Below the pieces are notes generated by a model. That model did no database searches. It had not been told where the DNA came from and saw nothing but the letters and a program-made list of their open reading frames with translations. 64,000 nucleotides of DNA from Shigella phage Henu12. The position numbers were made by a program, and so were the translations under genes. Positions 1,670-42,614 of this stretch are shown here, piece after piece. Location: sequence record OQ834936; one strand, written 5' to 3'. How positions within the stretch are numbered: position 1 is the first letter of the stretch; every line of letters begins with the position of its first letter.

Positions 1670-2464
1670 TTAGTTACGTGCTTCAACATAGTTTACGTTT
1701 TCATGTGTGATATAATCTTCTGCAAACTCTTCTGTAGTCGCATTGATATATACACTTGCATCATCGCCAAACGTTACCGCTCTGTGGTGGTGGCCTTGTA
1801 ACGGGTGGGTAACTTGAGCGTTACTTCGATTGTACTTCTCAACCGGAGGGTAACTGGTGTGTACCTTGCCATTACGCTTCACCTTGAGGGTAACTTTATC
1901 CTTGCCTACCACAGCAACACCATCAAAGTATTGAGGCTCACTGAAGTTCTCCCAACCAGTAACAGGACTAGTCAACTGACTGTACATCTTATCTTCATAG
2001 ACATACATATAAACGTCAACATCCTTCATAGTCTGGTTGATAATGGACAGTACAGCCATGCTATCAAGACCACCAATCCCTGCACCAATCATCGGAAGCC
2101 CAACTTTCTTAAGTTGATTAACTTTACAGTAGTTGTTAAGACGCTGTAAAGCTGCTTCTAAGGCGTTGTATCGTGCATCTTTGCCAGTGATAACCTGAGT
2201 GTAAAGGTTAGCAATTCGACCCTGCTTAAAACGTGCTACAGAGATGTTACCAAGCATTAGATGCTTAGGGTTATGATTTTCACCACCTACTGTAGCATAA
2301 ACTTCAGCGTCAGTTTCATAAGCTTTTGGGTAGCGTTTAGCAATTGTTGCTGCGATACCTGCTGGCATCAAGTTCATGCAGTTACAACCGTGACCAATGA
2401 TATCAAACTTCTTACCATCAAAATCTTTAAAGATATCACCTTTAATAATTTTTACGATACCCAT
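1670..2464 (-). CDS. macro-domain protein, TARG1/DarG-like (putative ADP-ribose glycohydrolase) with C-terminal extension
   Basis: Motifs GHGCNCMNLMPAGIAATIAKRYP and GLPMIGAGIGGLD resemble the TARG1 HCISEDCRMGAGIA and PRIGCGLD signatures. Start moved to internal Met (MGIVKIIKGDIF) with GGGAG RBS and ATGA overlap with the upstream stop; the track ORF extends to 2521. Confidence 0.6.
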   Translation of the reverse strand: MGIVKIIKGDIFKDFDGKKFDIIGHGCNCMNLMPAGIAATIAKRYPKAYETDAEVYATVGGENHNPKHLMLGNISVARFKQGRIANLYTQVITGKDARYNALEAALQRLNNYCKVNQLKKVGLPMIGAGIGGLDSMAVLSIINQTMKDVDVYMYVYEDKMYSQLTSPVTGWENFSEPQYFDGVAVVGKDKVTLKVKRNGKVHTSYPPVEKYNRSNAQVTHPLQGHHHRAVTFGDDASVYINATTEEFAEDYITHENVNYVEARN

Positions 2465-2465
2465 A

Positions 2466-2666
2466 TTAGTAATGCTCCCAACGTTCGTTATCTTCAGATG
2501 GTTTAACTCGGTTACCTTCATGGTCTACCCATAAAGCACCGCAACCTTCACAGATTACTGGCATTGCTGAACCAGCTTTAAATTCTGCCTTTGTAAAGAG
2601 ACCTTTTAAGTCTCCTGTATCTTTTCCAAACATCTCAACAGAACACTTAGTGCAGAAATCAGCCAT
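2466..2666 (-). CDS. small zinc-ribbon protein (CxxC...CxxC)
   Basis: ORF track; two Cys pairs (CTKC, CEGC). Confidence 0.5.
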   Translation of the reverse strand: MADFCTKCSVEMFGKDTGDLKGLFTKAEFKAGSAMPVICEGCGALWVDHEGNRVKPSEDNERWEHY

Positions 2667-3337: not shown

Positions 3338-3607
3338 TCACTTCCTCGTTTTAAGGACTGCATAGATTTCTTTAGACTCTTCTCCGAACCATGTGTAGTG
3401 ATTCTCGTTGATTTCAGGATGGTTGTCAACACGTATTTTGCAATCTCTTCCAACATGTTTAAGTTGTGCAGAAACACCCTGCATAAAGATGTGACAAGTT
3501 ACATCATCCATAACCGTTGGCATAATGTCAAATCTCATGTAAGTGTTATTTGGTCTTGGTAACAGAAGATAACCTTCCACAAAAAATGTTTCATTCTTCT
3601 CTGTCAT
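3338..3607 (-). CDS. hypothetical protein (89 aa)
   Basis: ORF track; overlaps the downstream gene start by 4 nt. Confidence 0.5.
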   Translation of the reverse strand: MTEKNETFFVEGYLLLPRPNNTYMRFDIMPTVMDDVTCHIFMQGVSAQLKHVGRDCKIRVDNHPEINENHYTWFGEESKEIYAVLKTRK

Positions 3608-3873
3608 TGCTGCCTATTCCCTAACAAAATCATATCAATTAAATTGTTTGCCTTAATAGTACATTCATAGTAACCATCACGATAAAACTCAAGAGCACTT
3701 GCAAGGTCTTCACCTTTAGTGCCTTTAACCTCATATCGTGCTTCTTCTTGAGTGTACTTGTCACTCTCACTTACTTGGGAGTTTTTGAAGGTACTGTTCA
3801 CTTTGTTCGTTGAACACCCTGACATAAGGCTCAGTAGCACAATCATTAATAAAGACTGTCTTAGTTTTTTCAT
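3604..3873 (-). CDS. putative o-spanin (outer-membrane lipoprotein; signal peptide ending LMSGC)
   Basis: Lipobox-like signal; gene starts inside the 3' end of the upstream TM/coiled-coil gene in another frame, as in Rz/Rz1. Confidence 0.5.
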   Translation of the reverse strand: MKKLRQSLLMIVLLSLMSGCSTNKVNSTFKNSQVSESDKYTQEEARYEVKGTKGEDLASALEFYRDGYYECTIKANNLIDMILLGNRQQ

Positions 3874-4114
3874 AGTTCAATACCTCTTTGGTGTGTTTGT
3901 TTTTAGCAAGCACATCTTTCAAATCATTTTTGTAATTGGAGCTAAGATTTGATAAACCTTCTTGATAAGCATCTTTAGCAACACTTACAAGTCTCTGGTT
4001 AGTTAACTCCTTTTCATTAACTTGACTGGTCTTGTAAGTGTAACCTCCCCAAGCACCAACACCTATTAAGAAAATGATTACAAAAGCTGCTTGACAAAAT
4101 TCTTTAAACGTCAT
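3767..4114 (-). CDS. putative i-spanin (N-terminal TM helix plus periplasmic domain)
   Basis: N-terminal hydrophobic helix FVIIFLIGVGAWGG; overlaps the lipoprotein gene by about 107 nt. Confidence 0.5.
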   Translation of the reverse strand: MTFKEFCQAAFVIIFLIGVGAWGGYTYKTSQVNEKELTNQRLVSVAKDAYQEGLSNLSSNYKNDLKDVLAKNKHTKEVLNYEKTKTVFINDCATEPYVRVFNEQSEQYLQKLPSK

Positions 4115-4130
4115 TTAACTTCTCCTAGAA

Positions 4131-4156
4131 ATGAAAAAGGCTCCCGAAGGAGCCTC
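4131..4156 (-). terminator. intrinsic terminator GGCUCC-UUCG-GGAGCC plus U5
   Basis: Perfect hairpin with UUCG tetraloop and U-tract on the minus-strand RNA, just downstream of the 4167-4631 gene. Confidence 0.7.
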
Positions 4157-4166
4157 TATAATAACT

Positions 4167-4631
4167 TTAACCAAGAACTTTCGCAAGGACATTTGCTGCC
4201 ATTGTTGAGGCTTTTGAAGCAGCAGCTACGCCAGCCTTAATGGTATTATCCTTAATCGCAGAAACCGTTGCAGTATCTGTGAAGAGGTAAGTGGTAGTCT
4301 GAGAACCACTTGTAAAGGAAAGCATAAGAGCAGTTTCCAGATTGAAAGAACGGTAAGGAGCACCGGATTGTACAATCCCTTTTGCACCTAACTCTGAAGC
4401 CATACCCATATCATAGATAGTCATCAGATTTTCTTTATGAGCAGTAGTTGAACCAACACCTTTAACGTGTTTTGTGACATTCAACATTGCACGATACTCA
4501 CGAATGTTACCATCAGCTTTCACGTTTACTGCACGAAAGATTTTACCATCGAAATTACTTTTGATAATCTCACGAACTATCTGTGATTTGTTACCGGAAG
4601 CATCGATAGCTACTGTAATAATATTTTGCAT
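4167..4631 (-). CDS. hypothetical protein (154 aa)
   Basis: ORF track; followed by a terminator. Confidence 0.5.
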   Translation of the reverse strand: MQNIITVAIDASGNKSQIVREIIKSNFDGKIFRAVNVKADGNIREYRAMLNVTKHVKGVGSTTAHKENLMTIYDMGMASELGAKGIVQSGAPYRSFNLETALMLSFTSGSQTTTYLFTDTATVSAIKDNTIKAGVAAASKASTMAANVLAKVLG

Positions 4632-4642
4632 GGTTTACTCTC

Positions 4643-5338
4643 TCAGTTTTTAACAAGCATTGTTTTGATGTGTGGTAAGATTCTTTCAACCTTTGCCACG
4701 TTCTTCACTGTATCTTCTATAAAGCATACTACATCATAGTAAGGTAGAATGCAAGACTGAAGCATACGAACTTTCAAACTTTCTGCACTAATCTCATTGT
4801 CACCAAATCCACGCATAAACAGTAGGAAATCACTGTCTACATTCTCATTCAGGAAAAGATGTGTGACAACTCTTTGTGATTCTCCACGAGCAGTTAAGAA
4901 TCCTATATCAGCATTTCTTGATATACCACACAGGATGTTAAAAACATATGTTGGTTTAGCTCTGCGAGAGTCTACCAAGTTAGTATACTGTGAGTAAGTA
5001 CCATCATCTAACAAAGTTGCATTAAGCTCCTTATTAAAGCTTGTAAGAACACCGTCAATGTCTGCTAAGACCATTTTACGTTTTTCTTCCAAGTTCTTTG
5101 CAACCAAGATAAGGCTGTTACGACCAACATCTACAGTTTTACCTGTTAGCAAATCCTGACAAGGAATCTGTGTCTTTGTTGAGTGGAAGTCTTCAAATCT
5201 ACACACAACATTTCTTGCTGTATCTGCAAAGTCAGCTTTAGCAATATCTGACCAACTTGCAGAACTGATATCTAAATCAAGTGGCTTAATATCATAAGCA
5301 TGACACAGAACCATATCAAATTGTTTTGATTCGCTCAT
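4643..5338 (-). CDS. HAD-superfamily phosphatase-like protein
   Basis: Motif LADIDGVLT (DxDGxL/T), the HAD motif I. Confidence 0.45.
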   Translation of the reverse strand: MSESKQFDMVLCHAYDIKPLDLDISSASWSDIAKADFADTARNVVCRFEDFHSTKTQIPCQDLLTGKTVDVGRNSLILVAKNLEEKRKMVLADIDGVLTSFNKELNATLLDDGTYSQYTNLVDSRRAKPTYVFNILCGISRNADIGFLTARGESQRVVTHLFLNENVDSDFLLFMRGFGDNEISAESLKVRMLQSCILPYYDVVCFIEDTVKNVAKVERILPHIKTMLVKN

Positions 5339-5864
5339 ATTTTACCTTTTTAATGTTTGTTGCAAACTCACATTGAGCAAGCAGTTTCATGTTATTGTAC
5401 ACATCTTGAGAGTATTGTCTAGCCTTTGGAATCTTGTATTTGTAACCAGCATTATAAGAAGCTAGGACACGCTTCATAGAGTACTTTCCATCTGGGTTAC
5501 CATGAACCTTAGTCCAGAATAATAGCTCCTTATGAGCCTCTTTCGCTGAGTAATGGAAGTCACTTACTAGCTTCTTCTTAGCAACCTTTGGAGATACCTT
5601 GTTACGCTTTACAACAGTCTTCAAGTGATTTTGGAAAACACCATAATCATGAGTCTTTTTATTTTCTAACATGACACCTAATTGTGACTCTTGTAAGGCT
5701 ATAGCTGCTAAAGGGATTCCCCAACCTTTTCCCATCTGTCCTTCGCCATAGTTATATGCTTTTAACATATTAACTTTCTGGCTGATTGTAAGCTCTGGAC
5801 AGTCAGACGCTGTAGCTAAATGTGCTGTAAAGAATAAGCACAAACCTAAAACAAATTTCTTCAT
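5316..5864 (-). CDS. secreted lytic transglycosylase (SLT domain), candidate endolysin
   Basis: Signal peptide MKKFVLGLCLFFTAHLATA; SLT-like motifs ES, YGVFQ and YNAGY; start set at Met9 with AGGAG RBS (track start 5888). Confidence 0.55.
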   Translation of the reverse strand: MKKFVLGLCLFFTAHLATASDCPELTISQKVNMLKAYNYGEGQMGKGWGIPLAAIALQESQLGVMLENKKTHDYGVFQNHLKTVVKRNKVSPKVAKKKLVSDFHYSAKEAHKELLFWTKVHGNPDGKYSMKRVLASYNAGYKYKIPKARQYSQDVYNNMKLLAQCEFATNIKKVKYERIKTI

Positions 5865-5920
5865 TTGCACTCCTATTTTGTTAAACATGCAGATAATTAT
5901 ACACTAACCTGCACATTTTT

Positions 5921-5950
5921 CAAATAAAAAAGGCTGCCGAAGCAGCCCCT
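5921..5950 (-). terminator. intrinsic terminator GGCUGC-UUCG-GCAGCC plus U6
   Basis: Hairpin and U-tract on minus-strand RNA downstream of rIIB. Confidence 0.7.
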
Positions 5951-5965: not shown

Positions 5966-7087
5966 TTAAACTTCACGTTTACGCTGAGAAATCAGTTCAC
6001 CAGCAGTACCTACAACTACGTGAAGTGCTTCTGAACCATCCCACTCTTTGATGATTTCACGGCGACTATTTACAATCGCTGCAACTTCATAACGGGAAGC
6101 TCGCATTTTCATGTCGTTGTAGTCAGTTGGTACTGAAACAACATCACGAGGATGAACACGAACTTTCAGGATAGTGTCACCAGAGAAGCTAGTTACATAA
6201 TCCCAAGCACCAACGTGCAGACCCTGAGAGCAGGTTACATGGCGGTTATTATCAACCATCCAACGTGGCATCTCTACAATGTTACCCAAATCATTTGGAA
6301 CTTTGCAGGTACGAGAGTCAAACAGTTTACCACCACGAGTTGTGACTTTCTTCCAACCGATGATATAACCTTCTTCATCAATTTCAACATCGAGGTGTGA
6401 TACGAAGCCCCAAAGTTGTTCTACAGAGTCTTTTGATGGGTTTTCCATCAGTTTTTCAAAGAATGCAATCAGTCGAACAAAGCCATTATCACCTTTCTTC
6501 ATCATATCCAGAATACGGTCTACCAGAGTTGAGCGCATCTGAACAGCACCGTAATACAGGTTGTCACCTTTGATGGTTACAGCACCTTGAGTGAAGTTCT
6601 CAATAGACTTGCGAATGTTCATCAGTTCAAAAGCTTTCTTGTACTCACCTGAAACAACAGCCATTACAATATCAGTGTAGTTAGGGTGAGTTGACTCAAC
6701 AATCTCAGACTCTGCACCGAAAGTCATGATAACAGAATCACCAGTAATCATGTATTCAATCTGGCTGTTATTCTGCATTGCTTCATGCAGAGCATTTACA
6801 GGTTCTGCTTTGACTGCTTCTTTAACAGCTTTTGCAACAGGTTTCTGCTTAGATACCTTCTTGGTCGCTTTAACTTTCTTAGCACTCTTTGCAATATCTT
6901 TCAGAGTCTTTGCAGGTTTTGCTTTGGTTTTCCCTGACAGCAGCGTTGCTTCATGGCGCTCTACAGCACGACCTACCGAACGGGTTGAAGTGTTATACTT
7001 CAGAGCGATTGCAGTTTTGGTCAGTTTACCTTCTTTAACCAGTGCATAGATTTCTGCGTCGATTTGTGCTTTAGTCTTAGTAGTCAT
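5966..7087 (-). CDS. rIIB: rIIB-like protein
   Basis: C-terminal half matches remembered T4 rIIB blocks (LVDRILD, ENPS, KVHPRDVVS-P-DYND-KMR); lies directly downstream of rIIA as in T4. Confidence 0.8.
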   Translation of the reverse strand: MTTKTKAQIDAEIYALVKEGKLTKTAIALKYNTSTRSVGRAVERHEATLLSGKTKAKPAKTLKDIAKSAKKVKATKKVSKQKPVAKAVKEAVKAEPVNALHEAMQNNSQIEYMITGDSVIMTFGAESEIVESTHPNYTDIVMAVVSGEYKKAFELMNIRKSIENFTQGAVTIKGDNLYYGAVQMRSTLVDRILDMMKKGDNGFVRLIAFFEKLMENPSKDSVEQLWGFVSHLDVEIDEEGYIIGWKKVTTRGGKLFDSRTCKVPNDLGNIVEMPRWMVDNNRHVTCSQGLHVGAWDYVTSFSGDTILKVRVHPRDVVSVPTDYNDMKMRASRYEVAAIVNSRREIIKEWDGSEALHVVVGTAGELISQRKREV

Positions 7088-7167: not shown

Positions 7168-9540
7168 TTAATCCCAGCATACAGTATCTTCTGGAATGCT
7201 CTTAGTGTCAAAACCTAAAAACTTACCAACTTCGACGGGTGATACTTTATTCCAATCCAGATTAGAAAGCAAGAAGTTTTCTTTACGGCGTTTCTCAAAG
7301 TAATCTTTGAACTTACTTTCAAGACGCTTCTTAGCGTTATCCAGAACCTTTCTTGGCTTACAAGAGCCTCTCATATTCCTGCGAATGGTATCAAGAGTGC
7401 TGGTAATATCTTTGTAAGCAACTGGTGCAGCAGTGTATGCCAAGCGTCCAAACATTGCTTCTATAGCCTCTTCATTCCCCTCTAAGAAAATAGTCTTCTT
7501 AAAGTCTTTACTGTAAATGTGGCCTCTGGACTTACGCTTATCAGCAAACATAAAGTTTCGAGAAATCACATTACAATCAGTAATATCATGATTATTAGTC
7601 ATATATTGGTGAGTCAAGAAACGATGATACTCAATCCAATGTGTAGCATCAATGAAATCTTTCATCACTTGTTCATTGACTTCTGTCCAGTCTTCAGGAA
7701 TCTTTTTCCAGTTGGCTTTACGGAAGACATAAACTGACTGTCCAGTTAACTCTGTCATCAACGTTGCAGCACGTTCTGGTGAACATGAGAAGATTCCACC
7801 AATCACTTCATCACTCTGTGCTTTGATATACAGTTGTGGTTCTTCAATCTCATCAAAGTTCTCTTTAACCTCTGTATAACGAATCATGTAAGTATTTGGA
7901 CATATAAATGCTTTATACAGTTTTACAACACCACGTACAATAGTACGTTTTTCATAGTGGTGCTCTTTAGATGACATTGTATGCACACTTAACAGACTCT
8001 TGTCAAGCATATGCAAAGCTACAAACTCATCAAATTGCTGCTGACTGCTGAACAAGAAAGCAATACCATTGTAGCGACGGAAGTTAGAGTCTTCCTGTTC
8101 ACGGTCACGGCAAGCTCCACGGATAATCTGGTTTTTACCAGTTGTCTTCTCAGACCCGTTCTTGTTTCGACGGTCATTAATAAGGAACAAATAGTTGCTC
8201 AACTTGTCTTTACTCATTGCACCAAAGATACTAAACATTGCTGCATCTTGTGAATAAGTTGCTGAAGTTGCTCGAATACGGTTCTCCAGACTGCTGTACT
8301 TGTAGTATGCTACAGGTTCATACAGATTACCAATATTAGGAACTGGATTACCATCTTTGTCAAGCCTCAAGTTACCTGCATCATCTTTCAAGAATGACGG
8401 AGAACCATCTGCTTCAGTTAACTGACCACGACGGATACCTAACAGTTTTTGTTCAAGCTTTTTCAAGTTCTGGCCTTGCCATTCCAGAGAATCTTGGACG
8501 TGAATAAAGATTTCACGAGCCTCCTTCCTCATGGTATCATAGGCTTGAGCAGCATCAATCAGAGTTGGCTTGTTAGCAATCTCTTTTACCACATCTTCTA
8601 CGATTGTCTTAGTGATTTTCTTCACAGCTTCAACAATCTTGGTCTTAGTGGTCTCATTCATCTGCAATGCTTCACGAGATGCAGCAATAGCCACTGAACC
8701 AATTGGCATGTAGATGTTAACAAGGTCTACAGCACTACGGAAGAACTGAGGCAGAATGTTTGTAAACTCTGAGCCAAGCAACTCACCCATTTCAACCGGA
8801 TAAGCAATGTTACCCATGATTACATTGAAATGGACGCTGTTACTATTTGAGCGCCAGTTCTCTTTGTACTTCATTGCATCATAGACACCATCTTCACGAG
8901 AAATGGAAGTCATTGCTTCAAGAATGTCATAGTACTCAACATTACACTCTGGCTTAACTTTAAAGTACGAGTATACATTGCTCGCTTCTTCATGAAACTT
9001 GTTGATACGGTTATCGGATACCGCTACTCGAACAGCTAAACCATTTGGCTCTGTAGTTGGGTTAGTAGTCAACTTAGTTACTTGAGGGATACCATTCTCA
9101 AGGTAAACTGAGTATTTGTTAACTACACCATCAACATAGCTTGATACAGTGAATGACTGAGCAATTGCAAATGGGGACTTTGAACCGATACCCATAGCAC
9201 CAATGTAGTCGTTTGAATCGTTCTTTGTAGATTCTCCATAGGTCATGTAAAGTTTCATAACTTTATCATGAGTCAGTCCTGTACCAAAGTCACGAACTTC
9301 AAAGAATGGCTCGAAACGAGTTGGTAAGTGAACCAAGAAAGGTTTATCAACGTTACCAGAATCAATGTGAGCATCTACTGCGTTACATGACAATTCACGA
9401 ATTACAGCACGTTCTTTATATGTGTAAACACCTGAGCTTAGAAGACTGAACATTTCAGGTGTCATCTTAATCTGAGCCTGAGAGGTTTCCAGTGTACTTG
9501 AGCTTTTAATTACCGTTGCGTGGTCATTTACCATGCGCAT
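7168..9540 (-). CDS. rIIA: rIIA-like protein (GHKL ATPase-like N-terminus)
   Basis: N-terminus PEMFSLLSS...AVIRELSCNAVDAH...RDFGTGL...IGAMGIGSKSPF matches the T4 rIIA pattern as I recall it. Confidence 0.85.
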   Translation of the reverse strand: MRMVNDHATVIKSSSTLETSQAQIKMTPEMFSLLSSGVYTYKERAVIRELSCNAVDAHIDSGNVDKPFLVHLPTRFEPFFEVRDFGTGLTHDKVMKLYMTYGESTKNDSNDYIGAMGIGSKSPFAIAQSFTVSSYVDGVVNKYSVYLENGIPQVTKLTTNPTTEPNGLAVRVAVSDNRINKFHEEASNVYSYFKVKPECNVEYYDILEAMTSISREDGVYDAMKYKENWRSNSNSVHFNVIMGNIAYPVEMGELLGSEFTNILPQFFRSAVDLVNIYMPIGSVAIAASREALQMNETTKTKIVEAVKKITKTIVEDVVKEIANKPTLIDAAQAYDTMRKEAREIFIHVQDSLEWQGQNLKKLEQKLLGIRRGQLTEADGSPSFLKDDAGNLRLDKDGNPVPNIGNLYEPVAYYKYSSLENRIRATSATYSQDAAMFSIFGAMSKDKLSNYLFLINDRRNKNGSEKTTGKNQIIRGACRDREQEDSNFRRYNGIAFLFSSQQQFDEFVALHMLDKSLLSVHTMSSKEHHYEKRTIVRGVVKLYKAFICPNTYMIRYTEVKENFDEIEEPQLYIKAQSDEVIGGIFSCSPERAATLMTELTGQSVYVFRKANWKKIPEDWTEVNEQVMKDFIDATHWIEYHRFLTHQYMTNNHDITDCNVISRNFMFADKRKSRGHIYSKDFKKTIFLEGNEEAIEAMFGRLAYTAAPVAYKDITSTLDTIRRNMRGSCKPRKVLDNAKKRLESKFKDYFEKRRKENFLLSNLDWNKVSPVEVGKFLGFDTKSIPEDTVCWD

Positions 9541-9602: not shown

Positions 9603-9782
9603 TTACTTTTTAAATTTCTTTCCAGTTCCATTACAGTAAGGGCAACAATGACCTATACCAACTACCCCAGAACCTTCACACTCATCACAAGGTTCAGTCT
9701 CTGAGAAGTACTTGCATAGTAACATTGCAATAGCAACTATACAACCGAGTGAAAGAACAATTTCTAACCAATAACCTTGCAT
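9603..9782 (-). CDS. small membrane-anchored protein with two CxxCxGxG (DnaJ-type) zinc-finger motifs (59 aa)
   Basis: Hand translation MQGYWLEIVLSLGCIVAIAMLLCKYFSETEPCDECEGSGVVGIGHCCPYCNGTGKKFKK; AGGAGA RBS 6 nt before the ATG; just under the track cutoff. Confidence 0.45.
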   Translation of the reverse strand: MQGYWLEIVLSLGCIVAIAMLLCKYFSETEPCDECEGSGVVGIGHCCPYCNGTGKKFKK

Positions 9783-31225: not shown

Positions 31226-31649
31226 CTTTAATCTCTCTCATTTTGTTAATAGTAAGTCGTGATAATCTTAAGCTTTCTTGTGAAGAGAAGTCAAGTCCTT
31301 TTTCAGACCGTGGGAAGTAATTTCTGTCCCACGTATTCTCTGCATCCTGAAGCAGTTGGGATAGACTATCTAAGTCCGTTCCATTTTGCAACTTATTTTT
31401 TAAGGTATCTATCAAAAAGATTGTGTCTTTCGCTTTACGTCTTTCTGAAGATATCTCTTTCATGTGCTCAAATACAGAACACTTTAAACCTTCGTCGTAT
31501 CCACTTGATAGTTCTATCTCATGCTGAACATCAACCATTCGACGATGTTGATAAGCATACTCCTTCTGAGCCTCGATGTAAAGTGCTTCAACTCTTTCTA
31601 AAGCTTGGACAAGGTTATTGATATCTGGGTGAACGTACATCCTCTGCAT
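31209..31649 (-). CDS. hypothetical protein (146 aa)
   Basis: ORF track; first gene of the minus block after the divergent region. Confidence 0.5.
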   Translation of the reverse strand: MQRMYVHPDINNLVQALERVEALYIEAQKEYAYQHRRMVDVQHEIELSSGYDEGLKCSVFEHMKEISSERRKAKDTIFLIDTLKNKLQNGTDLDSLSQLLQDAENTWDRNYFPRSEKGLDFSSQESLRLSRLTINKMREIKDENCK

Positions 31650-31908
31650 GATTGCCTCTGTTAAGTATCTATAAAGATTTTAATCTCTTATCTTTATGTA
31701 TGTTATACATATAACTTTAAAGCTTTTTAAAAGCTATTAAAAATCTTTTAAGACTTTTAAAGAAACTGTATAGTTAATCTATAAAGGGAGTCTATTAAGA
31801 TAAAACCCACTTCGAAAAGACTAACACCTTGTCAAGTAGTTTGTCAACTTGCTTTTTGCAGAAAATTGCTGTAGGGTATTATCCAGAATGATTTGAGAGG
31901 GAGTAAAA
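31650..31908. promoter_or_regulatory. AT-rich divergent intergenic region with short repeats and two TTGTCAA copies
   Basis: Strand-switch point between the minus and plus blocks; near-palindrome AGCTTTTTAAAAGCT. Confidence 0.5.
31855..31882 (+). promoter_or_regulatory. candidate sigma70-like promoter TTTGCA-N16-TATTAT for the DNA polymerase gene
   Basis: Read on plus strand; followed by GAGGGAG RBS and ATG at 31909. Confidence 0.4.
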
Positions 31909-34608
31909 ATGGACAATGTAGATTTCGAAAAATTACATTTGGTTGGTGATACAGAAACTGATGGGTTGCTCCTTGAGTTTACAAAAGCACACGTAATGGC
32001 TTTCGCAGACTATAAAGATGACAGTGATGAACCTGCTGTGTGGGTTTTCACTGATGAGCCTATTCTTGGTCACAAGTATACAAAATACATCAAAGGTGGT
32101 CTGCGTGAAGGTGTTGAGTTTGCACTGAAAGCTAAACGTCTTTGTATCCACAATGGTCTTGGTTATGACTGGTGGGTGTTTAATCACATTGCACCTGACC
32201 TGTGGAACTTTGAGAATCCTAAGTGTAAGCCTTGGAGTGACTTCTTTCAGGATTCACTTATCCAATCTCGCGTACAGTGGATGGATAGACCTACACCAAA
32301 AGGTTACAAAGGTGCTCATGGTTTGGCTGCATGGGGTGCTCGTGTTGGTGTTCGTAAACCAGAGATTGAAGAGTGGGGTGTATGGAATGCAGAGATTCTT
32401 ACTCGTGTTGTAGAAGATATTAAGATTAACGCCAAAACTAAACGTGCTCTTGATAATGAGTACCTTAAGCTTAAGAAGTGTGGTGTTGACACTTATGAAA
32501 CCTATATGCGAGCTAAAGAAACATCTTTCTGGATGAGCCAGCAAGCTATCAACGGTTGGAAAGCTGATGTAGAACTTATGCAGTTCCATGTTAAAGAACT
32601 TGACAAGTTAACTAATGAGTTAGCTGCTGAGGTTGAGCCACACCTGCCACCAACTATCAAGACAAAAGGTAAGGTCACAGGTGAAGAGTTTGCTAAGTCT
32701 TGGAATGAGTATGTGGATACATTTGGTCACGTTGACGGCTTAAAAAGGATTACCAAGTACCCTAAGACAAAGTATCGTGAACAGATGCGTGAAGGTGAGT
32801 TGAAGCAATACCCTATCAAGCCATATGGAAAGCCAACTACAAAGATTTTTAACGTTGAGAAACGTAACTGCTACACACCAACTAATACGGTTACCAAAGA
32901 AGAGTACCCTGAAGGTTTCGTAGCAATGAAAGATGCTCGTGCAGTTTGTAATGAACTGAATGAGAAGATTGGGAAGAAGTGTAAAGATTGGAAACCAGTT
33001 AAGACTGTGAAGATTGTGAAGTACTATAATGTGCATGTTGTAAATCACTTCGAGTTGGAGTCAAGTCGCTACACTGGTTTGATTGATGCACCATTCACAC
33101 CAATTGAGTTTGAAGTTTCACGAATGACTCAGGTAGCTGTGGTGAAGGATTACTTAAAATCTGTTGGTTGGATTCCTGATGATTGGAACTACAAAAAAGA
33201 TTCTGATGGTCGTCCGGTTAAGGTTTGCAGATTCAAAGACAACAAAAAGATGATTCGCAAACATCCTAAGTGGGATGAGATGGTTGAGCGTTGTGGGTTG
33301 AACTATATTGAGCATGAAGGTGTCTATTACATCGAGCATAACTGGTCTGTTAAGAAGTACACAGATGTGCTTGAGCCTTGCTTGATTAGGACTTCACCAA
33401 AGCTTACAGAGTCTTCTTATGATACAATCGAAGGTGAGCTTGGACAGAAGATTGCGAAGTACTATACTTTGATGCACCGACGCAGGACTATTGAGAACTC
33501 AAAGGATGATGAGAAAGGTTGGCTGAACCAGATTCGTCCAGATGGTCGTTTGAGTGCAGGTGCAATGGTGTTTGGTACTTCTACTGGACGTATGACTCAG
33601 TATGGTATTGTAAACGTACCTTCTGGTGCTGCTGTTTACGGTGAGCCAATGAGGGCAGTGTGGATTTGTGAAGAGGGAACCAACGTAGTATCTGTTGATA
33701 TGAACTCTGCACAGCTTGTACTACTCTGTAACTTCATGGGTGATAAAGACTTCACCAAAGCGGTAACAGAGGGTAAAGAAGAGATTGAGTTTGTTCGTCA
33801 AGAGGATGGAAGATACTACTGCAAACACTTTGACCAGTATCTGAATCCAGAGATTGACAAGTATCTGCGTTATGACTCTGAAAACGATTTGTACGTAGTT
33901 TACTCAGGGACTGATGCTCACACTCTGAACAGTATCTACTTCAGCCTTAATGATGAGCAAGATATCTTGACTTGTCGTGCTACTCAGGATGAGAATCTTC
34001 TTCATGAGATTAGCAAGGGACGTAAGAAAGCTAAGAATGGTATCTATGCCCTGTTGTTCGGTGCAGGTGATGAGAAGTTTGCTAAAACAATTAAAGCAGC
34101 AACTACTCAGGAAGGTGCATTGACTAAGCAGACTTACTTTGTGCGCTTGCCGAAGATTAAGAAACTGTTAGACAACTTGGAAGCTGATTTCAAAGCAACT
34201 AAGAAAGCACTTGAAGAGGTGTTTGGTAAAACTGCTGCGATAGCTAAAGGTGGTTTTGTGAAGGTTGCTGGAGCTTGGCTGTGGTGTAAGTCTCCACACA
34301 AGCTGTTAAATTACCTTTTGATGGGTTCAGAAAGTCAAGTCCAGAATGAAGCAATTAACCTTGCATGTCGTCGTATGATTGATGAAGGTTTGATGAAGTT
34401 GAATGGTCGTAAACCAGCTATTGGCGCTCGCTTACTCTGTGCTTACCACGACGAAACAAGTTGGGAATGTCCAGAGCACATGACAGCAGATGTGAAAGCA
34501 GTAACTGACTGGTATTATGGTCAAGCATCTAAGAACCTTGGACTAAGGAAAGAAACCTTGGTAACAGGTACTGGTAAAGTTGGTAAGAGCTGGTATGAGG
34601 TACATTGA
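31909..34608 (+). CDS. DNA polymerase, family A (T7 gp5-like) with 3'-5' exonuclease domain
   Basis: DTETDG exo motif; HGLAAWGARVG, YALLFGAGDEK and HDE blocks resemble T7 DNA polymerase. Confidence 0.9.
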   Translation: MDNVDFEKLHLVGDTETDGLLLEFTKAHVMAFADYKDDSDEPAVWVFTDEPILGHKYTKYIKGGLREGVEFALKAKRLCIHNGLGYDWWVFNHIAPDLWNFENPKCKPWSDFFQDSLIQSRVQWMDRPTPKGYKGAHGLAAWGARVGVRKPEIEEWGVWNAEILTRVVEDIKINAKTKRALDNEYLKLKKCGVDTYETYMRAKETSFWMSQQAINGWKADVELMQFHVKELDKLTNELAAEVEPHLPPTIKTKGKVTGEEFAKSWNEYVDTFGHVDGLKRITKYPKTKYREQMREGELKQYPIKPYGKPTTKIFNVEKRNCYTPTNTVTKEEYPEGFVAMKDARAVCNELNEKIGKKCKDWKPVKTVKIVKYYNVHVVNHFELESSRYTGLIDAPFTPIEFEVSRMTQVAVVKDYLKSVGWIPDDWNYKKDSDGRPVKVCRFKDNKKMIRKHPKWDEMVERCGLNYIEHEGVYYIEHNWSVKKYTDVLEPCLIRTSPKLTESSYDTIEGELGQKIAKYYTLMHRRRTIENSKDDEKGWLNQIRPDGRLSAGAMVFGTSTGRMTQYGIVNVPSGAAVYGEPMRAVWICEEGTNVVSVDMNSAQLVLLCNFMGDKDFTKAVTEGKEEIEFVRQEDGRYYCKHFDQYLNPEIDKYLRYDSENDLYVVYSGTDAHTLNSIYFSLNDEQDILTCRATQDENLLHEISKGRKKAKNGIYALLFGAGDEKFAKTIKAATTQEGALTKQTYFVRLPKIKKLLDNLEADFKATKKALEEVFGKTAAIAKGGFVKVAGAWLWCKSPHKLLNYLLMGSESQVQNEAINLACRRMIDEGLMKLNGRKPAIGARLLCAYHDETSWECPEHMTADVKAVTDWYYGQASKNLGLRKETLVTGTGKVGKSWYEVH

Positions 34609-35120
34609 TGCGAGATTGTGGATTCACACATGAACAGTTAAAGTCTTGGTTAAACTATGACCCCGAAACAGGGGTCTTAACGTGGATTGGCAGGCCTCCA
34701 CATAGTAGTAGGGTGGTTATTGGGAGCCAAGCCGGAGCAATCAAGCGCACAAGGTCTGGTGTGTATATGCACACACAGATTTTAGGATACAGGACAGGCA
34801 ATCACCGAATTGCTTGGTTCTGGATGACAGGCAAGTGGCCTGATAAACACATTGACCACAAAGATGGAGATGGTTTGAATAACGCTTGGGACAATCTCAG
34901 GGAGGCCACAAAAGAACAGAACATGTCTAATAGGAGACAACCCAGAACATCAAAAAACTTAAAAGGTACAAGTAGAAGCAAGTCTGGTAAGTGGATAGCC
35001 CAGATTAACCATAATGGCAAGACTATACATATAGGTACATACACAACAGAAGAAGAAGCCCATAAAGCTTACTGTGAAGCTGCTATTAAACTCCACGGAG
35101 AGTTTGCAAAACTAAGTTGA
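34605..35120 (+). CDS. HNH homing endonuclease with AP2-like domain
   Basis: YDPETGVLTW, IDHKDGDGLNNAWDNLREATKEQN and AP2-like C-terminus; ATGA overlap with the polymerase stop. Confidence 0.7.
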   Translation: MMRDCGFTHEQLKSWLNYDPETGVLTWIGRPPHSSRVVIGSQAGAIKRTRSGVYMHTQILGYRTGNHRIAWFWMTGKWPDKHIDHKDGDGLNNAWDNLREATKEQNMSNRRQPRTSKNLKGTSRSKSGKWIAQINHNGKTIHIGTYTTEEEAHKAYCEAAIKLHGEFAKLS

Positions 35121-35171
35121 CAAGGTGCTCATGGAAGAGTACCTTATACTATATCTTGTATAGGAGGTTAC

Positions 35172-35390
35172 ATGACACTTTCAGACGTTATCCAACAACT
35201 TCAGGTAAGTGGTTACACTCAAGAGCAAATTGATGAGCTAAACATCATATCCATGCCAAACCGTTTTGTTAAAGCTTTTGGGTTAGAAGTTGTAAGGATG
35301 GCACATATACTCATTGTGGATGGTCTTCTTATCAAAGACAGAACTGGTGCTTTGAAAGGTAAGAGAATCGATATCACGGAGATATTATGA
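35172..35390 (+). CDS. hypothetical protein (72 aa)
   Basis: ORF track; AGGAGG RBS. Confidence 0.45.
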   Translation: MTLSDVIQQLQVSGYTQEQIDELNIISMPNRFVKAFGLEVVRMAHILIVDGLLIKDRTGALKGKRIDITEIL

Positions 35391-35596
35391 GTCACCGTGG
35401 TAGAACTCATCTTGCCATGATGCAAGGGGCTTCAAAAGAGACTATCAAGAATCGTAAGAAAACTCTTTTTGACAGAATGAATAGACTCATTGACAATGCA
35501 AGTCTACCTAACTCTGAAAAGGTTTTCTTGAAAGGGAATCTGAAGAGTATTGCACAGGAACTTATTGACATTGAATTTTGGAGACACCAAAAATGA
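35387..35596 (+). CDS. hypothetical protein (69 aa)
   Basis: ORF track. Confidence 0.45.
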   Translation: MSHRGRTHLAMMQGASKETIKNRKKTLFDRMNRLIDNASLPNSEKVFLKGNLKSIAQELIDIEFWRHQK

Positions 35597-35796
35597 CTTA
35601 TGAAGAAGCTATTGAAGCCATGAAGAGTGGTCACAAAGTACGTAATGAAAATTTCACATCTGATGAGTTCTTCGAAATGAAAGATGGGAAGATTGTCTGT
35701 GAAATGGGTTACCCAATGGCTACATGGTATAAGGGAGAACCTTGGCAGAAAACTGGATGGAGTATCTTTAATGAAATTTTACACCATTTGGGGTAG
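35578..35796 (+). CDS. hypothetical protein (72 aa)
   Basis: ORF track; preferred over the overlapping 35684-35914 frame. Confidence 0.4.
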   Translation: METPKMTYEEAIEAMKSGHKVRNENFTSDEFFEMKDGKIVCEMGYPMATWYKGEPWQKTGWSIFNEILHHLG

Positions 35797-35903
35797 AGTC
35801 GGTAAAGGTTATGACTGGATTCTCCTTAAAACAAATGTTAAAAGTAATGAGATAGTTTACTACAAAGTCTATTACCATAAAACTTTTAGAGAGGTAGAGT
35901 ATC

Positions 35904-36155
35904 GTGAGCAGTAGAGAAGAAGAAGCTTTAGCAATCTTCAAGAATGAAGATAAATCAATATCTTTTGTATCAGAGGCTTGGTGCAGGGGCTTAGGTTATG
36001 ATTGGTATCTCTTCTTATGTGCTAAGAAAGATGTTAAACCAGTTGATGAAACCCGATTCAAAGAACTGTATACTGTCTGCCAAGAGGGTTATGAAGAACA
36101 CTACGAAGGCTCTTTGAATCCTGTAAATTCAAAAGCTTCAGATTTATTTTATTGA
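35904..36155 (+). CDS. hypothetical protein (83 aa)
   Basis: ORF track. Confidence 0.45.
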   Translation: MSSREEEALAIFKNEDKSISFVSEAWCRGLGYDWYLFLCAKKDVKPVDETRFKELYTVCQEGYEEHYEGSLNPVNSKASDLFY

Positions 36156-36165
36156 GAGGTCTAAA

Positions 36166-36402
36166 ATGTTAAAATTATTGATACCAGCTTTAGTAGTTCT
36201 ACTAGTTGGGTGTAACCCTTCTTACGAGAATAAGGATGCTTCTTACAGACTTCCTCCAGAAATGCAAGACTGCAAGATTTATAAGCTTAATGGTGATGCA
36301 ACTAGCAGGGATGTTATTGTAGTTCGCTGTCCAAATTCTCAGACGACTACTTCTTACAAGTATGGAAAGAATAGTCAGTCACATACTACTGTTTTTGATT
36401 GA
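36166..36402 (+). CDS. putative lipoprotein (signal peptide ending LLVGC)
   Basis: Lipobox-like LVGC after a hydrophobic signal. Confidence 0.5.
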   Translation: MLKLLIPALVVLLVGCNPSYENKDASYRLPPEMQDCKIYKLNGDATSRDVIVVRCPNSQTTTSYKYGKNSQSHTTVFD

Positions 36403-36412
36403 GGATATTAAT

Positions 36413-36619
36413 ATGCAGGTTCTGGTAAATTTTATCTATAAGTATGAAAACATCTTCAGCACCATGACTGAAGGTCAACGCAATCCAGTTATCCCACGGG
36501 AAGGGGAGATTGTTGAGATTAATGACTGGAACCACAGAGTTGCAGAGGTCAAGCATAAACTTAAAGATGGTTATGACCACCAAGTTGTAAATGTGTATTT
36601 AGAAGGTAAGTGGCAATGA
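36413..36619 (+). CDS. hypothetical protein (68 aa)
   Basis: Start set at internal Met with GAGGA RBS (track start 36362). Confidence 0.4.
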   Translation: MQVLVNFIYKYENIFSTMTEGQRNPVIPREGEIVEINDWNHRVAEVKHKLKDGYDHQVVNVYLEGKWQ

Positions 36620-36710
36620 GCATCTTACATATCATCTCTGAAGATTTTGGAGGGTGCTCTTGGCACTCATTTTTCACAAAAGGTTGTCTAGCTTGTGAGG
36701 CACGTAAAAA

Positions 36711-37811: not shown

Positions 37812-37819
37812 AGGCCAGT

Positions 37820-37969
37820 ATGTTTAGTGCAATTGTTCTGTTTATATTTGTTGTTTTATCATTGGCTTACTTCACAAGTAAACTCTTAAGTATAACATAC
37901 AAAGCAGCCTTAGCCCTTACTCTGTTGTCATTTGCAGTAAATGCAGCAGTTAGAATGTATTTAGTATAA
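37820..37969 (+). CDS. small hydrophobic membrane protein (49 aa)
   Basis: Hand translation MFSAIVLFIFVVLSLAYFTSKLLSITYKAALALTLLSFAVNAAVRMYLV; GAGG RBS 5 nt upstream. Confidence 0.35.
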   Translation: MFSAIVLFIFVVLSLAYFTSKLLSITYKAALALTLLSFAVNAAVRMYLV

Positions 37970-37974
37970 AATTG

Positions 37975-38003: not shown

Positions 38004-38046
38004 CCTATATAGAAAATTATATAGGAACCCGTCAGAAACCTCGGGG

Positions 38047-42010: not shown

Positions 42011-42050
42011 AACAAAAAAGGCTCCCGTAAAAAGGAGCCTTAGAATTATT
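42011..42050. terminator. bidirectional intrinsic terminator (GGCUCC-loop-GGAGCC flanked by A- and U-runs) at the convergence point
   Basis: Hairpin 42020-42039 with A6 upstream and U-rich downstream; sits between the thyA stop and the stop of the 42046-42420 gene. Confidence 0.6.
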
Positions 42051-42420
42051 TCTTTTTAGTGCTTTGGGTATTTTGTTCTGTAATTGCTTGCAAAGCTGAT
42101 ACAGATTGTGCTAAGTTGTTAACACTGTCAGAGAACTTATCAAGGGTCTTAGTCAACTTAGCGTTTTCTCCCTTAACATTCTCTAGCTGAACTTTCTGGT
42201 TCTCCATCCCTAATTGTAGGAGCTTCATATCAGACTGTAAATCACGAATAGCTGAATAGTTACCTTTTGAGTAACTATCCAACTGTTGTAACTTTGTGTT
42301 GATAGAAACTTCTTGCTTTCCATCAGAGACCTGCATCGTAGTGTACATGCCAATTACACTGAAAATACCTACAACAATTGCACCAATGTTGTTCTTAAAA
42401 GCCTCTTCAATCCACTTCAT
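42046..42420 (-). CDS. membrane protein with N-terminal TM helix and coiled-coil domain
   Basis: Hydrophobic helix IGAIVVGIFSVIGMY followed by heptad-like Q/L/K-rich sequence. Confidence 0.5.
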   Translation of the reverse strand: MKWIEEAFKNNIGAIVVGIFSVIGMYTTMQVSDGKQEVSINTKLQQLDSYSKGNYSAIRDLQSDMKLLQLGMENQKVQLENVKGENAKLTKTLDKFSDSVNNLAQSVSALQAITEQNTQSTKKK

Positions 42421-42614
42421 TATTTTTCACCCTTAAAAGCCTTTTCCAAGGTATCTACAAATTCATCATCGATAGGTGTGTCTGTTTTACTCGCAAGGTA
42501 TCTTGCAAGCTTAAAGAACACTTTTTCAATCATGTATTCGCTAAGAAGAGAAAGTAGAAGCTTCCAGAAGAATGCCCCAAGATTTTTCAAGAGGATTGCT
42601 AGAATGGTTGGCAT
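42420..42614 (-). CDS. small membrane protein (64 aa)
   Basis: Hydrophobic N-terminal half, charged C-terminus. Confidence 0.5.
   Translation of the reverse strand: MPTILAILLKNLGAFFWKLLLSLLSEYMIEKVFFKLARYLASKTDTPIDDEFVDTLEKAFKGEK

What the first reader, a model, noticed from the sequence alone, without database searches (positions are those of the whole stretch)
3604..5864. Lysis cluster with embedded spanin pair and secreted SLT-type lysin but no obvious holin
Seen: a TM-anchored protein gene (3767-4114) overlaps a lipoprotein gene (3604-3873) in a different frame, the classic i-spanin/o-spanin arrangement; the lipoprotein is longer and less Pro-rich than Rz1-type o-spanins. About 1.2 kb upstream is a signal-peptide protein with lytic-transglycosylase motifs (ES, YGVFQ, YNAGY). 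No holin-like gene is adjacent. Inference: the lysin may be exported via the signal peptide, with the holin encoded elsewhere.
Basis: partly seen in the sequence, partly recalled or inferred. Interest (0 to 1): 0.45.

Follow-up and report, generated by a model that had tools for sequence, protein, structure and literature searches.

The report
Known spanin pair plus Vs.1-like transglycosylase
This stretch of a Felix-O1-like (Mooglevirus) phage holds an already catalogued overlapping spanin gene pair and, in a separate transcription unit, a secreted lytic-transglycosylase-like protein that is the counterpart of the uncharacterised T4 gene vs.1. The phage's real lysis enzyme and its putative holin lie elsewhere, so the finding is largely ordinary.

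Summary
The window is a Mooglevirus (Felix-O1-like myophage), 100% identical to Shigella phage Henu11 over the region.

- **Spanins.** 3767-4114(-) and 3604-3873(-) form a genuine i-spanin/o-spanin pair. They overlap by 107 nt in the +1 frame, so the architecture is "overlapped", not "embedded". The pair is already annotated in relatives and listed in the "JH2" spanin families (which include Felix01 and Moogle) of Kongari et al. 2018.
- **Probably not the endolysin.** These phages carry a soluble GH24 lysozyme (Henu11 Gp58, outside the window) and a putative holin (42046-42420). T4-likes keep both e and vs.1. The SLT-like gene sits in its own promoter/terminator-bounded unit, separated from the spanins by a terminator-like hairpin.
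- **Prior knowledge.** Published genome papers already state that lysis genes in this group are scattered.

Novelty is low. The only open question is what Vs.1-like proteins do.

The parts
3604..3873 (-). o-spanin gene: outer-membrane lipoprotein precursor of 89 aa with lipobox Cys20. The mature part is 70 aa, Pro-free, with a conserved C-terminal Cys71.
   Evidence: ORF. Lipobox rule, +2/+3 = S-T, conservation in Mordin, VSe102, Paul, Sasha and FIfi106. phrog_4180 E 1.5e-48 and a weak Rz-like phrog_456 hit. Annotated o-spanin in relatives. Purifying selection in this frame. JH2 o-spanin family.
3767..4114 (-). i-spanin gene: 115 aa with an N-terminal TMD, a periplasmic domain and the conserved C-terminal motif YEKTKxVFxNxC.
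   Evidence: ORF. TMD by hydropathy and AGGAG RBS. phrog_1152 'Rz-like spanin' E 4.2e-38. 320 phage records, many annotated i-spanin. JH2 i-spanin family including Felix01, Moogle and phiEco32.
3767..3873 (-). 107-nt dual-coding overlap (o-spanin in the +1 frame of the i-spanin); 'overlapped' architecture.
   Evidence: 88.8% nt identity to VSe102 against 74-77% in the flanks, with no 3rd-position bias in either frame. The same +1 overlap is present in all relatives checked.
4136..4157 (-). Intrinsic-terminator-like hairpin (GGCTCC-TTCG-GGAGCC followed by a T-run), directly followed by the i-spanin RBS.
   Evidence: Scan. Sequence. Fold -15 kcal/mol. Identical to Felix O1 terminator t5. Annotated as a terminator in Mordin.
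4167..4631 (-). Conserved hypothetical protein, 154 aa, no TMD.
   Evidence: phrog_2267, unknown function. No TMD. No meaningful PDB hit.
4643..5338 (-). HAD-type phosphatase annotated 'polynucleotide kinase'; overlaps the 3' end of the SLT-like gene by 23 nt.
   Evidence: phrog_3970 E 4.7e-127. Mordin note 'HAD-like domain'. FIfi106 note 'C-terminal phosphatase domain of T4 PNK'.
5316..5864 (-). Vs.1-like secreted lytic-transglycosylase-fold protein: 182 aa, signal peptide about residues 1-19, catalytic E59-S60, D73 in the beta-hairpin, C22 and C165 conserved in the subfamily.
5896..5949 (-). rIIB terminator hairpin (about 5949-5926) immediately followed by a sigma70-like promoter (TTGAAA-16-TATAAT, 5923-5896) for the SLT-like/phosphatase/hyp154 unit.
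   Evidence: Promoter scan, 11 of 12 matches. Sequence. Hairpin -15.6 kcal/mol, z -3.15. Terminator annotated at this position in Mordin and as Felix O1 t2.
5966..7087 (-). rIIB homolog.
   Evidence: phrog_609 E 9e-85. Annotations in relatives.
7168..9540 (-). rIIA homolog.
   Evidence: phrog_612 E 2e-184 and Pfam HATPase_c_3.
42046..42420 (-). Putative holin: 124 aa, one N-terminal TMD and a long coiled-coil-like C-terminal domain, at the end of the tail-fibre operon. The assignment is by annotation only.
   Evidence: 96% identical to Mordin_56 'holin'. One TMD. phrog_4038, unknown function. The Meda paper says no holin was identified in a related phage.
42420..42614 (-). Small one-TMD protein (64 aa) immediately upstream of the putative holin; possible holin or antiholin partner.
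   Evidence: 97% identical to Mordin_57. TMD. phrog_402, unknown function.

Best explanation
The region is part of the leftward, pre-late transcription block (rIIA-rIIB-...) of a Felix-O1-like Mooglevirus. It contains two independent envelope-directed functions rather than a lysis cassette.

**1. A two-component spanin of the catalogued JH2/Felix O1 family, in overlapped (+1) architecture.** The i-spanin is anchored in the inner membrane by its N-terminal TMD. The o-spanin is lipidated at Cys20 and sorted to the outer membrane. By analogy with lambda Rz/Rz1, the two join through their C-termini across the periplasm and disrupt or fuse the outer membrane once the peptidoglycan is gone. This mechanism is inferred.

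**2. A Sec-exported protein of about 18 kDa with a family-1 lytic-transglycosylase fold.** It is the ortholog of T4 Vs.1 and is structurally closest to small 'specialised' enzymes such as EtgA. It is most likely an active periplasmic glycan-strand-cleaving enzyme made before late genes. It probably remodels or locally opens the sacculus as an accessory function and is not the enzyme that executes lysis; this role is inferred.

**Execution of lysis.** Lysis itself is carried out by a soluble GH24 lysozyme encoded outside the window, released by a holin encoded elsewhere. The best holin candidate is 42046-42420.
For: - **Genome identity and synteny:**
- **Spanins:** TMD, lipobox and RBS; PHROG hits; annotated homologs in 266-320 phage records; a distant homolog pair in Sasha sits inside a holin-endolysin-holin-spanin cassette; dual-frame selection; listed in Kongari et al. 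2018.
- **SLT-like protein:** invariant E59 (166/166), S/T60, Y137 and Y151, and a signal-like N-terminus in 145/159 family members; LT fold; EtgA is the best PDB profile hit, with E59 aligned to the EtgA catalytic-motif Glu and D73 aligned to the Asp mutated in PDB entry 4xp8 'EtgA D60N'; same PHROG as T4-like Vs.1 and 33% identity to it.
- **Separate GH24 endolysin and putative holin:**. T4-likes keep e and vs.1 together.
- **Own promoter and terminators:**
- **Timing and virion content:** Felix O1 RT-PCR places ORFs 3, 4 and 6 in the class that peaks at 25 min, before the 60-min late genes, and gp3 is not among the virion proteins.
- **Literature:** lysis genes are scattered in this group.
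Against: - No experiment on any member of this spanin family or on any Vs.1-like protein was found in the library.
- This sequence's Pfam SLT score (18.4 bits) is below the gathering threshold of 21.3.
- The signal peptide and lipobox were judged by rules and hydropathy only; SignalP and LipoP were not available.
- In Felix O1 the canonical lysin gp35 also peaks at 25 min, so timing does not separate the two enzymes.
- A Sec-exported enzyme held inactive until the membrane is de-energised could still contribute to lysis.
- The holin assignment is annotation-level only (phrog_4038 has no known function).
Confidence: 0.78

Rival explanations
1. First reader's model. The SLT-like protein is the phage's endolysin. 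It is exported by its signal peptide, independently of the holin, and forms a functional lysis cluster with the spanins, with the holin elsewhere.
For: It has a signal-like N-terminus, intact catalytic motifs and an LT fold. Some GenBank and UniRef records call it 'putative lysin' or 'Lysin'. It lies 1.2 kb from the spanins on the same strand.
Against: A canonical soluble GH24 endolysin exists in the same genome family. In Felix-O1-like phage C600M2 a lysin with the same cd00737 endolysin_autolysin domain is the one studied as the endolysin, and the Felix O1 paper treats the Phage_lysozyme gp35 as the lysin. T4-likes retain both e and vs.1; from established T4 genetics (recalled, not tested here), e mutants fail to lyse even though vs.1 is present. 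A terminator-like hairpin and two unrelated genes separate the SLT-like gene from the spanins. The SLT-spanin linkage is absent in T4-likes and looser in Erwinia phage FIfi106.
Confidence: 0.07
2. Accessory secretory lysin. The Vs.1-like enzyme accumulates in the periplasm in a restrained state, as Sec-exported or SAR endolysins do. It becomes active when the holin collapses the proton-motive force, and then speeds or secures lysis alongside the GH24 enzyme, for example on hosts or growth states with a tougher sacculus.
For: Periplasmic targeting is conserved in 145/159 family members and the catalytic Glu is strictly conserved. The family is retained in about 1,900 virulent phage genomes that also carry rII or rI lysis-control genes. 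Nolan et al. 2006 suggested 'some role in cell lysis'.
Against: There are no functional data. The enzyme is redundant with a strong soluble lysozyme. No conserved linkage to holin or endolysin genes was seen.
Confidence: 0.2
3. Envelope remodelling unrelated to lysis. The enzyme might take part in a superinfection-related or anti-defence function, or in opening the sacculus locally for another phage envelope complex. This would parallel the specialised transglycosylases (EtgA, IagB, VirB1) that serve secretion machines.
For: The closest solved relative by profile is EtgA. The protein is small, secreted and single-domain, like specialised LTs. The gene sits beside rIIA/rIIB in Felix-like phages and about 2 kb from rI in T4-likes.
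Against: No partner machine was identified. No relatives were found in plasmids or, by pattern scan, in bacterial genomes. The idea rests on analogy alone.
Confidence: 0.15
4. The overlapping lipoprotein ORF is a chance ORF and only the TM protein is real.
For: Short ORFs with hydrophobic starts are common in AT-rich DNA. Some records, such as Henu11 and FIfi106, do not annotate it.
Against: Substitutions in the non-overlapping part are biased to the 3rd codon position (8/7/27), and the overlap shows extra conservation. The lipobox Cys and a C-terminal Cys are conserved down to about 28-34% identity in Paul, Sasha and FIfi106. The other two frames of the o-only region are full of stops.
Confidence: 0.02

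Closest known systems
JH2/Felix O1 two-component spanin families (Kongari et al. 2018, BMC Bioinformatics 19:326)
   Same: Direct homologs. Felix01, Moogle, JH2 and phiEco32 are listed in the same i-spanin family, and Felix01, Moogle and JH2 in the same o-spanin family. The architecture is overlapped (phrog_1152).
   Different: Nothing material. This is another member, about 99% identical to annotated Sf13 and Mordin proteins.
Lambda Rz/Rz1
   Same: The same logic applies: a type-II inner-membrane protein plus an outer-membrane lipoprotein encoded in the +1 frame of the same DNA.
   Different: Rz1 is fully embedded, short and proline-rich (recalled; the penta-proline stretch is described). Here the o-spanin is overlapped, has a 70-aa mature part and has no proline. 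No significant sequence similarity to the lambda family was seen.
Phage T4 Vs.1 (conserved ORF between regB and vs; PHROG 600)
   Same: Ortholog: same PHROG (E 4.2e-57 vs 6.9e-69), 33% identity with BLASTP E 9e-15, same length of about 181 aa, a signal-like N-terminus and ES...YG.FQ...SYN.G motifs. Marginal SLT similarity was already noted by Nolan et al. 2006.
   Different: The T4-like protein has Ala where this one has the beta-hairpin Asp (D73), and it lacks the C22/C165 pair. The neighbours also differ: regB/vs in T4-likes, rIIB/phosphatase here.
EtgA (EPEC type III secretion peptidoglycan-lytic enzyme; PDB 8urn, 4xp8) and related specialised lytic transglycosylases
   Different: There is no secretion-system context, and identity is only about 21%. 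The family is phage-restricted in the searches done.
Family-1 lytic transglycosylases (Slt70, MltC, MltE, MltF; Pfam SLT PF01464) and phiKZ gp144
   Different: This sequence falls below the Pfam gathering score (18.4 vs 21.3 bits). It has no accessory domains. Unlike gp144, it carries a signal peptide and is not the phage's designated endolysin.
Secretory and SAR endolysins (for example Oenococcus phage fOg44 Lys44, P1 Lyz, phage 21 R); recalled from the literature
   Same: A muralytic enzyme with an N-terminal export signal, exported independently of holin holes.
   Different: Those are the sole endolysin of their phage and sit in lysis cassettes. Here a separate soluble GH24 endolysin exists and the gene is not in a cassette.

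Membership tests
Two-component spanin: i-spanin | A single N-terminal transmembrane domain (type II, N-in/C-out) | tested here: met
   KD19 maximum 1.89 at residues 6-24 and no other hydrophobic segment. The TMD is conserved in the homologs.
Two-component spanin: i-spanin | A largely alpha-helical or coiled-coil periplasmic domain | tested here: inconclusive
   The single-sequence AF2 model is all-helical but has pLDDT 41.8, which is too low to rely on.
Two-component spanin: i-spanin | Homology to a catalogued i-spanin family | tested here: met
   phrog_1152 'Rz-like spanin' E 4.2e-38. The JH2 family list includes Felix01 and Moogle.
Two-component spanin: o-spanin | A lipoprotein signal with a lipobox Cys and outer-membrane sorting (no Asp at +2) | tested here: met
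   The PROSITE-type rule is matched, with Cys20 and +2/+3 = S-T. This is rule-based only; LipoP was not available. The Paul homolog carries a LipoP SpII annotation.
Two-component spanin: o-spanin | Gene embedded in, overlapping or adjacent to the i-spanin gene | tested here: met
   107-nt overlap in the +1 frame, 'overlapped' class.
Rz1-type o-spanin (lambda family) | A proline-rich region or penta-proline stretch | tested here: not met
   The mature protein has 0 Pro. It is therefore not a lambda-Rz1-family member, although it is an o-spanin of another family.
Two-component spanin (function) | Required for outer-membrane disruption; complements Rz/Rz1 mutants | not testable with these tools
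   This needs genetics. Indirect support: the Sasha homologs lie in a holin-endolysin-holin-spanin cassette.
Family-1 lytic transglycosylase (Pfam SLT, PF01464) | Score at or above the Pfam gathering threshold | tested here: not met
   18.1 and 18.4 bits against a cut-off of 21.3. T4-like Vs.1 scores 23.8 bits and passes. 35 of 50 family members hit SLT at E<=0.01.
Family-1 lytic transglycosylase (Pfam SLT, PF01464) | Catalytic Glu-Ser motif plus the downstream GxxQ and AYNxG-type motifs | tested here: met
   E59 166/166, S/T60 166/166, G75 160/166, Y137 166/166, N138 154/166, G140 165/166, Y151 166/166.
Family-1 lytic transglycosylase (Pfam SLT, PF01464) | Goose-lysozyme/SLT fold | tested here: met
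Family-1 lytic transglycosylase (Pfam SLT, PF01464) | Produces 1,6-anhydroMurNAc products | not testable with these tools
   This needs muropeptide analysis. The presence of D73 (HEWL/EtgA-like) in this subfamily leaves hydrolase chemistry possible.
T4 Vs.1 family (PHROG 600) | Significant full-length sequence match to Vs.1 orthologs | tested here: met
   phrog_600 E 4.2e-57 over 170 of 178 profile positions. BLASTP to ime09 Vs.1 E 9e-15.
Endolysin of a holin-endolysin lysis cassette | Adjacent to holin and spanin genes in one late unit, and the phage's principal muralytic enzyme | tested here: not met
   No holin is adjacent. The gene has its own promoter and is separated from the spanins by a terminator-like hairpin. 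A separate GH24 endolysin is present in the genome family.
Secretory (Sec-signal) muralytic enzyme | A cleavable N-terminal signal peptide | tested here: inconclusive
   By rule: n-region KK, a 14-16 aa h-region and A-T-A|S, with low pLDDT at the N-terminus. The feature is family-wide in 145/159 members. No dedicated predictor or experiment was available.
Specialised secretion-system lytic transglycosylase (EtgA/IagB type) | Encoded with, and serving, a T3SS, T4SS or pilus machine | tested here: not met
   The context is a phage genome only. There were no plasmid hits and no bacterial-genome relatives by pattern scan.

The most novel reading that the evidence does not exclude
Vs.1-like proteins form a large family (about 1,900 phage records; 624 clusters at 50% identity) of Sec-exported, EtgA-like lytic transglycosylases made before late genes by T4-like and Felix-O1-like virulent myophages. 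They may have a distinct, still undiscovered job in the periplasm. One option is conditioning the sacculus so that holin, endolysin and spanins can act quickly. Another is a role in superinfection or lysis-inhibition control alongside rI and rII. Under this reading, the proximity to rIIB and the spanins seen here would reflect an 'envelope module'.
Probability: 0.3. Interest if true: 0.5.

Novelty: already known. Interest (0 to 1): 0.15.

Why it matters
As a finding it adds little. The spanin pair is already annotated and catalogued. The scattered layout of lysis genes in Felix-O1-like phages is published. The SLT similarity of the Vs.1 family has been noted since the 2000s.

Two things are useful. 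First, a correction for annotators: the 'putative lysin' and 'similar to RegB' labels on this ORF are misleading. It is a Vs.1 ortholog with a lytic-transglycosylase fold, while the GH24 protein is the endolysin. Second, a reminder that a very widespread secreted phage enzyme, conserved from T4 to Felix O1, has no known function. A simple knockout in T4 or Felix O1 would address this.

Tried and rejected
- **Sequence search of PDB for the SLT-like protein.** The single sequence and the shallow 11-sequence profile gave only spurious hits (a designed repeat protein, PRP4 kinase). Only the 50-sequence profile reached EtgA.
- **NCBIfam.** No informative hit for any of the six proteins.
- **Plasmid collection.** No relatives of the SLT-like protein.
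- **Bacterial genome scan.** Patterns from A1 gave 48 pattern matches, none confirmed. The A2 alignment was too diverse to derive patterns.
- **afdb50 fold library.** Unavailable.
- **Literature on Vs.1 function or on Felixounavirus transglycosylases.** Nothing beyond Nolan et al. 2006. The T4 genome review was not held.
- **Single-sequence AF2 of the i-spanin.** pLDDT 42, unusable.
- **hyp154 against PDB.** Only low-complexity hits to designed proteins.
- **tRNA and Rfam scans of the window.** Nothing found.
- **190-aa start (ATG 5888) for the SLT-like ORF: considered and rejected.** It lies at or before the predicted transcription start and has no RBS, whereas ATG 5864 has an AGGAG.
- **Mordin's note 'similar to T4 endoribonuclease RegB': considered and rejected.** In T4-likes regB is merely the neighbouring gene of vs.1, and some records mislabel vs.1 homologs.


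Full report
**What the window is.** A 3.9-kb query around the finding is 100% identical to Shigella phage Henu11. It is 97-99% identical to other Mooglevirus (Ounavirinae, Felix-O1-like) myophages, and 250 records cover at least 80% of it. Genes in this part run on the minus strand in this order:
- rIIA (7168-9540)
- rIIB (5966-7087)
- SLT-like ORF (5316-5864)
- HAD phosphatase annotated 'polynucleotide kinase' (4643-5338)
- a 154-aa unknown (4167-4631)
- i-spanin (3767-4114)
- o-spanin (3604-3873)
- an 89-aa unknown (3338-3607)

**Checking the observation.**
- The i-spanin candidate has one N-terminal TMD and a strong AGGAG RBS.
- The o-spanin candidate begins MKKLRQSLLMIVLLSLMSGC. It satisfies the PROSITE-type lipobox rule, with Cys20 followed by Ser-Thr, so there is no Lol-avoidance Asp. 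Its 70-aa mature part has no proline.
- The genes overlap by 107 nt, with the o-spanin in the +1 frame and extending beyond the i-spanin stop. In the terminology of Kongari et al. 2018 this is 'overlapped', not 'embedded' as in the finding's title.
- The overlap is not a chance ORF. Against the Felixounavirus VSe102 ortholog, substitutions fall mainly on 3rd codon positions in the i-only part (13/12/30) and the o-only part (8/7/27). The dual-coding part is more conserved (88.8% against 77.2% and 74.2% nt identity) and has no 3rd-position bias in either frame.
- The +1 overlap, the lipobox Cys and a C-terminal Cys in each protein persist in Paul (Kuravirus, about 34% identity), Sasha (siphophage, about 28%) and Erwinia phage FIfi106, where the o-spanin ORF is not annotated.
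- In Sasha the homologous pair lies in a textbook holin-endolysin-holin-spanin cassette.

**The spanins are already known.** The i-spanin matches phrog_1152 'Rz-like spanin' at E 4e-38. Mordin, Sf13-Sf19, VSe102 and many other records annotate both genes. Kongari et al. list Felix01 and Moogle in the 'JH2' i- and o-spanin families and place Felix01 among the overlapped architectures. I found no experiment on this particular family, so the mechanism remains an inference from lambda Rz/Rz1. [quoted passage not shown]

**The SLT-like protein: sequence and fold.**
- *Start and signal.* The correct start is ATG 5864. It has an AGGAG RBS, and the longer ORF would begin at the predicted transcript start. 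The N-terminus, MKKFVLGLCLFFTAHLATA|SD, looks like a cleavable Sec signal.
- *Pfam.* SLT is hit only below threshold, 18.4 bits against 21.3.
- *Family size and conservation.* An exhaustive profile search found 624 clusters at E<=1e-3, nearly all 160-200 aa. Across 166 aligned members the catalytic Glu (E59), Y137 and Y151 are invariant. S/T60, G75, N138 and G140 are nearly so. 145 of 159 members have a signal-like N-terminus.
- *Closest solved relative.* With the 50-sequence profile, the best solved relative is EtgA, the T3SS-associated peptidoglycan-lytic enzyme (E 8.6e-6), followed by C-type lysozymes through the DYG(V/I/L)FQ hairpin. E59 aligns with the EtgA catalytic-motif Glu. D73 aligns with the Asp that PDB entry 4xp8 mutates ('EtgA D60N'). 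That Asp is present in only 64 of 166 family members.

**Identity with T4 Vs.1.** tblastn finds the protein in 1,928 phage records. These include T-even phages, where the hit is gene vs.1 between regB and vs. The ime09 Vs.1 protein is 33% identical (E 9e-15) and falls in the same PHROG 600. This explains Mordin's odd note 'similar to T4 endoribonuclease RegB': regB is simply the neighbouring gene, and some records mislabel vs.1 homologs. Nolan et al. [quoted passage not shown] I found no functional study.

**Is it the lysin of a lysis cluster? The evidence says no.**
1. Mordin and Henu11 encode a separate 154-aa soluble lysozyme (Pfam Phage_lysozyme E 2.4e-38; PHROG 7 endolysin). It lies outside the window. 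The Felix O1 paper treats this GH24 protein (gp35) as the lysin, and in Felix-O1-like phage C600M2 a lysin with the same cd00737 endolysin_autolysin domain is the one studied as the endolysin.
2. A putative holin annotated by the Texas A&M group has its homolog at window 42046-42420(-), preceded by a small one-TMD ORF at 42420-42614. This assignment is weak: phrog_4038 has no known function, and the related phage Meda was published with no holin identified.
3. T4-likes keep both e and vs.1 in more than 1,000 records, and there vs.1 is unlinked to the spanins. From established T4 genetics (recalled, not tested here), e mutants do not lyse even though vs.1 is present.
4. The SLT-like gene heads its own unit. 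The rIIB terminator hairpin (-15.6 kcal/mol, z -3.15) is followed directly by TTGAAA-16-TATAAT. The unit ends at a hairpin identical to Felix O1 terminator t5, placed just before the i-spanin RBS.
5. Genome papers state that lysis genes of Felix-O1-like phages are scattered rather than forming a cassette.

Felix O1 RT-PCR puts ORFs 3, 4 and 6 in the class peaking at 25 min, ahead of the 60-min late structural genes. By synteny these are the SLT-like gene, the phosphatase and the i-spanin. The lysin gp35 peaks at the same time, so timing alone does not discriminate between the two enzymes. Gp3 is not among the virion proteins detected.

**Most likely mechanism.** The spanin pair acts at the last step of lysis. 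The Vs.1-like protein is most likely an active periplasmic glycan-cleaving enzyme with an accessory role; the role is inferred, while the fold and motifs are shown. Two more interesting readings cannot be excluded. One is a secretory lysin restrained until membrane de-energisation (about 0.2). The other is an envelope-remodelling or superinfection-related role by analogy with specialised transglycosylases (about 0.15).

**Verdict.** The 'lysis cluster with a secreted lysin' reading is not supported. The elements are already annotated or catalogued, so interest is low. The open function of the very widespread Vs.1 family is the only part worth an experiment.

Noticed in passing
window 9603-9782 (-): A 59-aa ORF just upstream of rIIA has an N-terminal TMD followed by two CxxCxGxG-type motifs (CDECEGSG, CPYCNGTG), like a DnaJ-type zinc finger. 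It matches phrog_3931 (unknown function) and is annotated 'putative membrane protein' in Sf18.
   Followed up: partly
window 36166-38433 (+): A cluster of small envelope-targeted ORFs of unknown function lies on the opposite strand. It holds a 78-aa lipoprotein (MLKLLIPALVVLLVGC, phrog_902), a 49-aa two-TMD protein (37820-37969, phrog_22006) and a 128-aa protein with a signal-like N-terminus (38047-38433, phrog_4332). They could be further candidates for superinfection or lysis-control functions.
   Followed up: partly
window 4643-5338 (-): The gene annotated 'polynucleotide kinase' shows a HAD motif (DIDGVL) and matches PNK PHROGs only over about residues 80-220. I saw no P-loop by eye, so it looks like the 3'-phosphatase half only and the 'kinase' label may be an over-call.
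   Followed up: no
window 3604-3607 and 3870-3890 (-): The o-spanin stop overlaps the start of the next ORF (ATGA), which suggests translational coupling. Separately, the i-spanin's most conserved motif (YEKTK) is encoded by the same bases as the o-spanin start codon and its Lys-rich n-region, so part of that 'motif' may reflect dual-coding constraint.
   Followed up: partly
L009 (Erwinia phage FIfi106) about 3430-3700 (+): An unannotated o-spanin ORF (MKRLFNLFFLTSVLVMTTASC...) overlaps the annotated 'putative spanin' in the +1 frame. In this phage the transglycosylase-phosphatase pair is kept, but five extra genes separate it from the spanins.
   Followed up: partly
window 1670-2521 (-) and L005 (ime09) 3877-4356: A macro-domain protein lies about 1 kb downstream of the spanins here. 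In T4-likes a macro/A1pp phosphatase (tk.4) lies two genes downstream of vs.1. This is a loose recurrence of neighbours (Vs.1-like, phosphatase, macro domain) between Felix-like and T4-like phages.
   Followed up: no
window 31500-42000: GC skew flips sign at about 32 kb and about 42 kb, marking a block transcribed on the + strand (it includes DHFR at 40563-41108). The putative holin at 42046-42420(-) sits exactly at the 42-kb convergence point.
   Followed up: no
window about 3338: The match to Henu11, Sf13 and others starts at window 3338, and Mordin has a different gene downstream of the 89-aa ORF. This suggests a mosaic breakpoint just downstream of the spanin/hyp89 block.
   Followed up: no
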